A program made the translations under genes and the position numbers. A DNA stretch of 64,000 nucleotides from Octopus vulgaris (Eukaryota). The notes below the pieces were generated by a model. That model ran no database searches. It saw only the letters and a list, made by a program, of their open reading frames with translations, and was not told where the DNA came from. Below, one piece after another: positions 34,680 to 34,915 of the stretch (positions within the stretch are counted from its first letter, which is position 1; each line of letters starts with the position of its first letter). Location: positions 4,526,001-4,590,000 of the forward strand of contig OX597839.1 of assembly GCA_951406725.2 (NCBI GenBank), written 5' to 3'.

Positions 34680-34915
34680 CATGAAATATGAAAACAAATG
34701 AGTTGAATACGCAAACAACGGGAGAAAGAAATGGAAAACAGGACAAGTAAAATAAGGAACGACCCTTCATCAGTTGTCGGCTGTCTATCTACTCCTCATT
34801 TCGAGCATTGAACGACAATATGAGTCTTCGAAGACAGTGGTTCCCATAAGTACCAAAATAAAATTTGGGATTTATGGAGGATCAAAAGTTGGGAACAAAA
34901 ACAGGATAGTGGAGA
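34680..34915 (-). mobile_element. Diverged member of repeat family P (copy 3)
   Basis: Minus strand CTATCCTGTTTTTGTTCCCAAC..CCTCC..CAAATTTTATTT and CCTTATTTTACTTGTCCTGT align with 35930-35990 and 36092-36112. Confidence 0.6.
34762..34824 (-). ncRNA. Putative permuted hammerhead ribozyme (intact core)
   Basis: Minus strand reads CTCAT-A | TTGTCG-TTCAAT-GCTC-GAAA-TGAG-15 nt-CGACAA-CTGATGA-A-GGGT. Confidence 0.72.

What the first reader, a model, noticed from the sequence alone, without database searches (positions are those of the whole stretch)
34762..34824. Second intact permuted hammerhead with completely different stem sequences (minus strand)
The minus strand reads CTCAT-A | TTGTCG-TTCAAT-GCTC-GAAA-TGAG-GAGTAGATAGACAGC-CGACAA-CTGATGA-A-GGGT. 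Stem III is CUCAU/AUGAG (5 WC pairs), stem I is UUGUCG/CGACAA (6 WC pairs) and stem II is GCUC/GGGU. The core is intact, the triplet is AUA, and the predicted cut is between 34819 and 34818. The flanks are distantly homologous to copies 1 and 2, yet most stem positions differ while pairing is kept. This compensatory change is the strongest evidence in the window that the permuted fold is under selection.
Basis: partly seen in the sequence, partly recalled or inferred. Interest (0 to 1): 0.88.

Follow-up and report, generated by a model that had tools for sequence, protein, structure and literature searches.

The report
Split-core hammerhead of Naiad-type retroelements
This is a damaged copy of a jumping-gene repeat carrying a scrambled, probably self-cutting RNA whose catalytic centre is pieced together in a way not found in the papers searched, and the same fold sits at the end of many animal Naiad retrotransposons that were reported to lack such RNAs.

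Summary
The motif is real: hammerhead core blocks in S-G-C order, stems I and III as stated, predicted cut 34819/34818. In 18 diverse relatives the strand before GAAA pairs with an upstream strand (89 of 90 positions, first pair always G-C); pairing with the bases after CUGAUGA is at chance level. Those bases close an extra helix, so A9 and G10.1 lie on different strands, which the published permuted hammerheads do not show. The copy belongs to a non-coding, (TA)n-targeted repeat with thousands of copies. The fold also ends Naiad Penelope-like retrotransposons, reported to lack canonical hammerheads: 19 of 72 metagenome Naiad 3' tails score on the sense strand, 0 on the antisense. Genomic 5' truncations cluster 0-15 nt after the cut (19 against 5.1 expected), indirect evidence of cleavage. 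This copy is not intact: two stem II mismatches. Cleavage is untested, RNA reads show no end at the cut, and the mobilising RT is unresolved.

The parts
34663..34921 (-). Family A repeat copy, 5'-truncated and lacking the last ~20 nt of the family's 3' end; non-coding; full unit about 750-800 nt
   Evidence: shared extent with 29 other loci, alignment, 92% to a near-majority copy, longer copies
34878..34883 (-). Helix IV, 5' strand (closing helix; one C-to-U change leaves a G-U pair)
   Evidence: counterpart in families B, C and most Naiad loci
34844..34877 (-). Hairpin V (6-bp outer stem 34877-34872 with 34849-34844), abutting helices IV and II with no spacer
   Evidence: recovered by nested folding of the whole 132-nt region
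34839..34843 (-). Stem II 5' strand, supplies G10.1; two substitutions in this copy break 2 of 5 pairs
34832..34837 (-). Helix VI 5' strand (joins stems I and II; pairs with 34786-34781)
   Evidence: equivalent of the I-II helix required in type SGC
34813..34824 (-). Block S: stem III strand 34824-34820, H17 = A 34819, predicted cut 34819/34818, stem I strand 34818-34813
34795..34807 (-). Block G: stem II 3' strand 34807-34803, GAAA 34802-34799, stem III strand 34799-34795
34781..34786 (-). Helix VI 3' strand
34767..34779 (-). Block C: stem I strand 34779-34774 and CUGAUGA 34773-34767
34761..34766 (-).
1872..2253 (+). Family B copy with a fully paired split-core ribozyme at about 2004-2124 (predicted cut 2068/2069)
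35902..36218 (+). Family C-like copy, same layout, core G8 mutated
45869..46112 (+). Family D copy: decayed 3' end of an autonomous Naiad element with the same ribozyme layout
   Evidence: RT remnants upstream in other copies; matches printed Naiad_Obim/Ovul 3' ends by eye

Best explanation
The locus is a 5'-truncated, slightly decayed copy of a non-autonomous Penelope-like retroelement (retrozyme-like unit of ~0.75-0.85 kb) that carries the 3' ribozyme typical of a subset of Naiad elements. The RNA folds as six helices in the order 5'-IVa, V hairpin, IIa, VIa, IIIa-UH|Ia, IIb-GAAA-IIIb, VIb, Ib-CUGANGA-IVb. It is a circular permutation of the published CSG/SGC/GCS class, opened at a new place: between A9 and G10.1, where helix IV and hairpin V are inserted. 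Shown here by comparison: the pairings, the association with Naiad 3' UTRs, the sense orientation, the excess of 5' truncations just after the cut. Inferred: that the fold builds a normal hammerhead active site and cuts after UH; that cutting trims tandem or read-through transcripts into units (possibly circularised) which a PLE RT/GIY-YIG protein copies into (TA)n from an internal start ~170 nt downstream; that RT running off a cleaved 5' end gives the short copies. This particular copy is probably slow or dead.
For: Upstream stem II: 89/90 positions paired in 18 representatives, G-C first in 18/18, 0.57 when partners are swapped; contiguous stem II 24/72 (no bulge) and 30/72 (one bulge), swapped 0.32 and 0.37. 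Watson-Crick run sum 102 against 59.8 +/- 4.0, maximum 75 in 2000 shuffles. In a structure-blind MAFFT alignment of 8 related Naiad loci 5 of 6 stem II pairs change on both sides, 97.9% paired, 0-1 of 500 shuffles as high on four of five measures; the contiguous rival is 9.4% paired. Helix VI abuts IIa and Ib in most representatives without being required. 12 of 80 Naiad loci under strict criteria, all sense, 0 antisense, 0 in 10 shuffled sets; 19 of 72 tails sense, 0 antisense, 2 hits in 30 x 72 shuffles; 21 of the 22 loci with CUGANGA after the ORF show the fold. Family D lies downstream of RT remnants whose best relatives have N-terminal GIY-YIG. Tandem units, inverted truncated copies and (TA)n ends match the Naiad description. 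19 of 100 unselected copies start 0-15 nt after the cut against 5.1 expected (scan P = 0.00035). Unsplit SGC and CSG forms cleave in vitro.
Against: No cleavage assay of the split form exists; a break between A9 and G10.1 has precedent only as a one-nucleotide insertion. Three RNA-seq runs of one study show no pile-up of ends at the cut (unstranded, ~6% of each run read, species may differ). The truncation peak is centred near +10, not at 0, and 64 of 100 copies extend 8 nt or more past the cut. Helix IV is weak in D, needs a 2-nt insert in one E copy, was not found in L329, and its three core pairs never vary in the 8-locus alignment. Stems I and III were imposed by the descriptor. Family A shows no blastn similarity to the Naiad 3' end D. 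58 of 80 Naiad loci have no CUGANGA after the ORF. In another PLE the hammerhead needed protein to cut and was dispensable for insertion in vitro.
Confidence: 0.8

Rival explanations
1. One reading: an ordinary type-SGC hammerhead in which the bases after CUGAUGA (one A bulged) form stem II; the upstream helices are a regulatory or incidental alternative, and this copy is active.
For: A 4-bp contiguous stem with one bulge is possible in families A, B and C; an extra nucleotide after A9 is known (U in type SGC patterns; A10 in CChMVd). It is the only stem II left to this copy.
Against: 0-2 contiguous pairs in D, E and 15 of 16 metagenome loci listed (3 in L329); 9.4% paired in the 8-locus alignment; weaker (-4.0) than helix IV (-8.6 to -11.2) and than the upstream stem II (-7.7).
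Confidence: 0.1
2. The fold is conserved as a protein-binding or structural signal for the PLE RT, and is no longer, or only with protein, catalytic; the truncation peak comes from RT stalling in the pseudoknots or from microhomology with (TA)n.
For: No RNA ends at the cut; peak offset to about +10, inside the stem II 3' strand, and many junctions abut (TA)n; PAc hammerhead is protein-dependent and dispensable in vitro.
Against: All catalytic-core nucleotides and an H other than G are kept across families with unrelated stems; other AT-rich sites and helix entries in the element show no such peak.
Confidence: 0.08
3. On mobilisation only: families A, B, C and E borrow the young C-terminal-endonuclease Penelope-like element of this genome rather than a Naiad protein.
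For: Naiad copies here are old and broken (77-82% to the window copy; no long open frames among the top hits), while a 781-aa-ORF PLE with pLTRs is 96-98% identical between copies and also sits in (TA)n; family B is 94-97% identical.
Against: No sequence similarity between the A-E units and that PLE at low stringency, and no S-G-C fold was found in 8 of its copies; the shared ribozyme architecture points to Naiad ancestry.
Confidence: 0.35
4. Chance arrangement in a repeat.
For: Nested MFE z-score -0.13; no Rfam match.
Against: Strand-specific, position-specific recurrence with different stem sequences and near-zero shuffle rates.
Confidence: 0.01

Closest known systems
Type-SGC, -CSG, -GCS hammerheads (Eckert et al. 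2023, PMC10085705)
   Same: [quoted passage not shown]
   Different: Published forms keep CUGANGA contiguous with stem II (an explicit assumption; patterns CUGAUGAG or CUGAUGAUG; alignments). Here that link is broken and two helices are inserted. [quoted passage not shown]
Naiad Penelope-like elements (Craig et al. 2021, PMC8557442)
   Same: (TA)n targeting, partial tandems, inverted 5'-truncated copies, N-terminal GIY-YIG with C-terminal RT in the autonomous relatives; family D matches the printed Naiad_Obim and Naiad_Ovul 3' ends by eye.
   Different: That paper reports no canonical hammerhead in Naiads and only flags 'HHR_core' and 'HHR_half_core' cases; the flagged families I could read fold as split-SGC or CSG ribozymes. 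Family A itself is non-coding.
Non-LTR retrozymes and PLE pLTR hammerheads (PMC4209133; bioRxiv 10.64898/2026.07.22.740005; PMC7229834 seen as listing only)
   Same: Non-autonomous tandem units with one hammerhead each, thought to be PLE derivatives processed to unit length.
   Different: Those carry type I (CGS) canonical or minimal, often dimeric, hammerheads; this one is a self-contained monomer in permuted order.
CChMVd (+) hammerhead with extra A10
   Same: Tolerates an insertion between A9 and G10.1 (passage in PMC1636495).
   Different: One nucleotide, not an open helix plus hairpin.

Membership tests
Hammerhead ribozyme | Core CUGANGA, GAAA, UH with U16.1-A15.1 | tested here: met
   this copy; relatives
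Hammerhead ribozyme | Stems I and III flanking the core, with covariation | tested here: met
   pairing was part of the search descriptor
Hammerhead ribozyme | Stem II starting G10.1-C11.1 | tested here: met
   family level: 18 of 18, via an upstream strand; this copy keeps G-C but breaks 2 of 5 pairs
Hammerhead ribozyme | Site-specific self-cleavage after UH | not testable with these tools
   indirect only: truncation excess; no RNA end seen
Classical types I-III (Rfam hammerhead models) | Block order CGS, GSC or SCG | tested here: not met
   order is S-G-C; no Rfam match
Type-SGC hammerhead (Eckert 2023) | Block order S, G, C | tested here: met
Type-SGC hammerhead (Eckert 2023) | Block C unbroken: stem II directly follows CUGANGA(U) | tested here: not met
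   possible only as a weak alternative in families A-C
Type-SGC hammerhead (Eckert 2023) | [quoted passage not shown] | tested here: met
   helix VI
Naiad PLE (autonomous) | ORF with N-terminal GIY-YIG and C-terminal RT | tested here: not met
   no such ORF seen in family A units; met for relatives of family D and for metagenome loci
Non-autonomous PLE derivative | Fixed 3' end, ragged 5' ends, partial tandems, inverted truncated copies, (TA)n targets | tested here: met
Non-autonomous PLE derivative | Mobilised by a Naiad protein | tested here: inconclusive
   shared fold but no blastn match to family D; no intact Naiad found; no match to the young canonical PLE either
Non-LTR retrozyme | Circular RNA monomers from ribozyme cleavage and ligation | not tested
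   one search did not cover a complete unit junction

The most novel reading that the evidence does not exclude
A natural hammerhead can assemble an active core with A9 and G10.1 on different strands, joined through an inserted open helix and hairpin. This split form and unsplit CSG forms are the missing ribozymes of many Naiad retrotransposons in cnidarians, nematodes, arthropods and cephalopods, so non-circularly permuted hammerheads are abundant genomic elements of animals, and cleavage leaves a footprint in where retrotransposed copies start.
Probability: 0.7. Interest if true: 0.88.

Novelty: new variant of a known kind. Interest (0 to 1): 0.8.

Why it matters
It would add a new opening point to hammerhead topology, one that the paper defining the permutations ruled out by assumption, and move permuted hammerheads from metatranscriptome curiosities to high-copy animal genome elements. 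It changes the statement that Naiads proliferate without canonical hammerheads, explains the unexplained 'half core' flags, and gives a descriptor for a class that Rfam and published patterns miss. The skewed 5' truncations offer a genomic handle on the open question of what ribozymes do for Penelope-like elements. The design is directly testable with one transcription reaction and offers a new insertion site for ribozyme engineering.

Tried and rejected
Whole-window Rfam scan was swamped by microsatellite miRNA models; local scan found no hammerhead; 20 Naiad loci, 17 without and 3 with the fold, gave no family at gathering score, so no substitute ribozyme was found in the motif-free ones. 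Nested folding cannot show stems II, III and I together. GIY-YIG search of the genome returned C-terminal-endonuclease PLEs, some near type I hammerheads, not Naiads. The word-indexed protein search with the decayed RT piece found nothing and Pfam did not recognise it; phmmer did. No RNA holder listed on record for the element. A one-mismatch core variant search of the 80 loci found nothing. Five further RT-bearing loci gave two D-type ends and no A-, B-, C- or E-type end. MAFFT of 13 distant ribozymes misaligned the helices and was not counted. A third 200-kb genome sample was not obtained, so the copy-number estimate rests on 400 kb. Tandem-unit reading as a split type I was rejected: S-G-C repeated never gives C-G-S. 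Look-ups of earlier scan findings returned nothing. The shuffle line shows a constant 1 because one N-containing tail was left unshuffled; one search corrects it.

Full report
OBSERVATION. A descriptor for all six block orders finds two S-G-C motifs in the window, this one and 2064-2123 (+), plus one ordinary type I at 27955-28040; 100 shuffled windows give no S-G-C hit. Nested folding and Rfam see nothing. S-G-C order is the published 'type SGC' non-circular permutation (PMC10085705; I read parts 2-6 of 8 of the text and searched the supplement). That paper validated SGC, CSG and one GCS RNA in vitro and found none in genomes of known organisms apart from one bacterial candidate.

THE REPEAT. 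The motif lies in a 259-bp copy (34663-34921) of a dispersed repeat, family A. The genome search lists 3222 first-look candidates, the 40 scored at 91-94%; one exact 20-mer occurs 475 times, its reversed control 0 times; 2 copies fell in 400 kb of evenly spaced sample, which suggests the order of 10^4 with a very wide margin. Related families are B (2254 candidates), C, D (1433) and E. A, B and C end in the same short motif followed by (TA)n; all have ragged 5' ends; partial tandems of about 820-845 nt and inverted truncated copies occur. No coding frame was seen in A or B units (output partly cut).

LINK TO NAIAD. Craig et al. 2021 (PMC8557442; passages, metadata sheet and motif searches of the supplement) describe Naiad elements as (TA)n-targeted, lacking canonical hammerheads, with 10 'core' and 8 'half core' flags in the supplement. 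By eye the printed 3' ends of Naiad_Obim and Naiad_Ovul match family D. Independently, D lies downstream of RT remnants whose best relatives are 830-1000-aa proteins with a C-terminal RT; 5 of 8 scanned carry an N-terminal GIY-YIG hit.

THE FOLD IS LARGER THAN REPORTED. Comparing families showed that the strand before GAAA pairs with an upstream strand, that the bases after CUGANGA pair with a strand further upstream (helix IV), that a hairpin (V) fills the gap between the two with no spacer, and that a helix VI joins stems I and II. To test this outside the genome I fetched the best 80 of 439 Naiad-like metagenome loci. Strict criteria give 10 split S-G-C and 2 CSG loci of 80, all on the sense strand after the ORF, none antisense, none in 10 shuffled sets. 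Relaxed criteria give 19 of 72 tails of 200 nt or more on the sense strand, 0 antisense, and 2 hits in 30 rounds of 72 shuffled tails. Of 22 loci with CUGANGA after the ORF, 18 score as split S-G-C, 2 as CSG, and L309 shows stems I and III by script and the upstream helices by eye; the 22nd has the word at the ORF end. The other 58 lack the word, 19 of them with tails of 800 nt or more. On an RT tree the split form sits on both sides of the midpoint and needs at least 6 gains or losses.

STEM II TEST. In 18 representatives (5 octopus families, 13 metagenome loci; the window copy and three near-duplicates L289, L333, L338 left out) the upstream stem II pairs at 89 of 90 positions and starts with G-C in all 18, whereas the contiguous pairing scores 24 of 72 without and 30 of 72 with a bulge, like swapped partners. 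The upstream partner was chosen as the best match in 50 nt, so I controlled it: 102 Watson-Crick pairs against 59.8 +/- 4.0 in 2000 shuffles; single-locus P values range from 0 to 0.49. Eight related loci aligned without structure give changes on both sides in 5 of 6 stem II pairs; the contiguous rival pairs 9.4%. Against: among six octopus A-C copies alone the signal is weak, a bulged contiguous stem is possible in A, B and C, helix IV is the least supported helix, and relatedness inflates such counts. By eye, Craig's supplement shows the split fold in three Acropora Naiads and in further records in the cnidarian and arthropod parts whose names were not in the passages, and unsplit CSG in Naiad-1, -2 and -3_Nbra; these readings were not computed, and each search showed only part of its hits.

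TOPOLOGY. Read as a circle the order is VIb, Ib-CUGANGA, [IVb | IVa, V], IIa, VIa, S, G. That is the CSG/SGC/GCS circle opened inside block C. Eckert et al. assumed that block C cannot be interrupted and searched for CUGAUGAG or CUGAUGAUG with a G-to-C linker of at most 15 nt, so these forms would be missed. One-nucleotide insertions at this spot are known, which makes the site plausible.

THIS COPY. Of 54 unselected copies spanning the ribozyme, 30 keep the core and 7 keep core plus stems I-III; divergence is 6.4% in the core, 9.2% in helices, 9.8% elsewhere. Selection acted on source elements; inserted copies decay.

EVIDENCE ON CLEAVAGE. I fetched 170 nt upstream of the first 100 of the 475 exact matches, a sample blind to 5' length. 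49 run to the edge, 4 end at -91 to -83, 15 start at -82 to -1, 19 at 0 to +15, 13 at +16 to +71. Under a constant hazard 5.1 are expected at 0 to +15; the best 16-nt window has P = 0.00035 (four unanchored copies were given placeholder positions near +65). By-catch copies of A, D and E also start near the cut (E offsets there are one too high). The peak is centred near +10, so stalling or microhomology remain possible. Three RNA-seq runs from one study carry family reads (486-708 laid) but show no pile-up of ends at the cut; 34, 41 and 23 reads switch there to inverted element sequence, probably one genomic junction. In a lizard PLE the hammerhead cut only with protein, was dispensable in vitro, and also left no ends in RNA-seq (PMC11167929, passages).

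MECHANISM. Most likely, tandem or read-through transcripts are cut once per unit; a PLE protein nicks (TA)n and starts reverse transcription internally near the fixed 3' end; templates that are uncut, multimeric or re-ligated give long and tandem copies, cut ones give short copies starting just after the site. The unit-length and circle model is from PMC4209133 (passages). Which protein moved family A is open: Naiads here are old and broken, and a young canonical PLE also targets (TA)n but shares no sequence with A-E.

NOVELTY. Ten full-text searches found no paper joining Naiads to permuted hammerheads or describing a split block C; 'type-SGC' occurs in one paper only. The 2026 retrozyme preprint uses type I models (part 1 and passages; its supplement is closed); PMC13725137, PMC10162972 and PMC13159263 were checked by passages. 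The library lacks most subscription journals, so an unseen report is possible.

VERDICT. Interest 0.8.

Noticed in passing
window 27955-28040 (+): Ordinary type I hammerhead with a long stem II; the same family occurs twice in L069 beside a C-terminal GIY-YIG Penelope-like ORF.
   Followed up: partly
L091-L095 (e.g. L094 244-5490): Young two-ORF Penelope-like family with an open 781-aa RT/GIY-YIG frame, ~500-nt pLTRs, 96-98% identity between most copies, inserted in (TA)n; no permuted ribozyme found in it.
   Followed up: partly
L005, L011, L035, L023, L060, near the 5' end of the units: A splice-donor-like GTAAG motif follows the (TA)n tail in families A, B, C and E, with long pyrimidine tracts downstream, like the 5' intron of PLEs; no spliced joint was seen, but that part was masked in the read lay.
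   Followed up: no
L313 3440-3580, L368 2890-3030: Two unsplit type-CSG hammerheads in Naiad 3' UTRs, sisters on the RT tree. The two published CSG examples came from soil DNA and have the same helix order as the nematode Naiad forms read by eye, so they may be Naiad ends.
   Followed up: partly
PMC8557442 supplement, part 17: One arthropod-section Naiad record appears by eye to have S-G-C order with a short contiguous stem II and a long insert between stems I and II: a possible third arrangement.
   Followed up: no
window 34930-35200, also 353-589, 1548-1685, 5022-5284, 15328-15581, 25522-25634, 28280-28396, 40408-40536: A different abundant ~260-bp repeat directly beside the element, at least 8 copies in the window at 81-89%.
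   Followed up: no
window 34824-34835: A 12-bp perfect palindrome between helix VI and stem III in family A could form a competing hairpin or mediate dimers.
   Followed up: no
L005:1620 in runs X21-X23: Reads switch to inverted element sequence within one base of the predicted cut, in all three runs; probably one transcribed inverted junction.
   Followed up: partly
58 of L289-L368: Many Naiad loci, whole subclades included, have no CUGANGA after the ORF and, in the 17 scanned, no Rfam family; they may lack a ribozyme, be cut short, or use an unknown one.
   Followed up: partly
L002 (about 600-1180 nt past the query start): A family A copy lies next to an open frame that reads like an exon of a host extracellular protein (recalled resemblance, not searched).
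   Followed up: no
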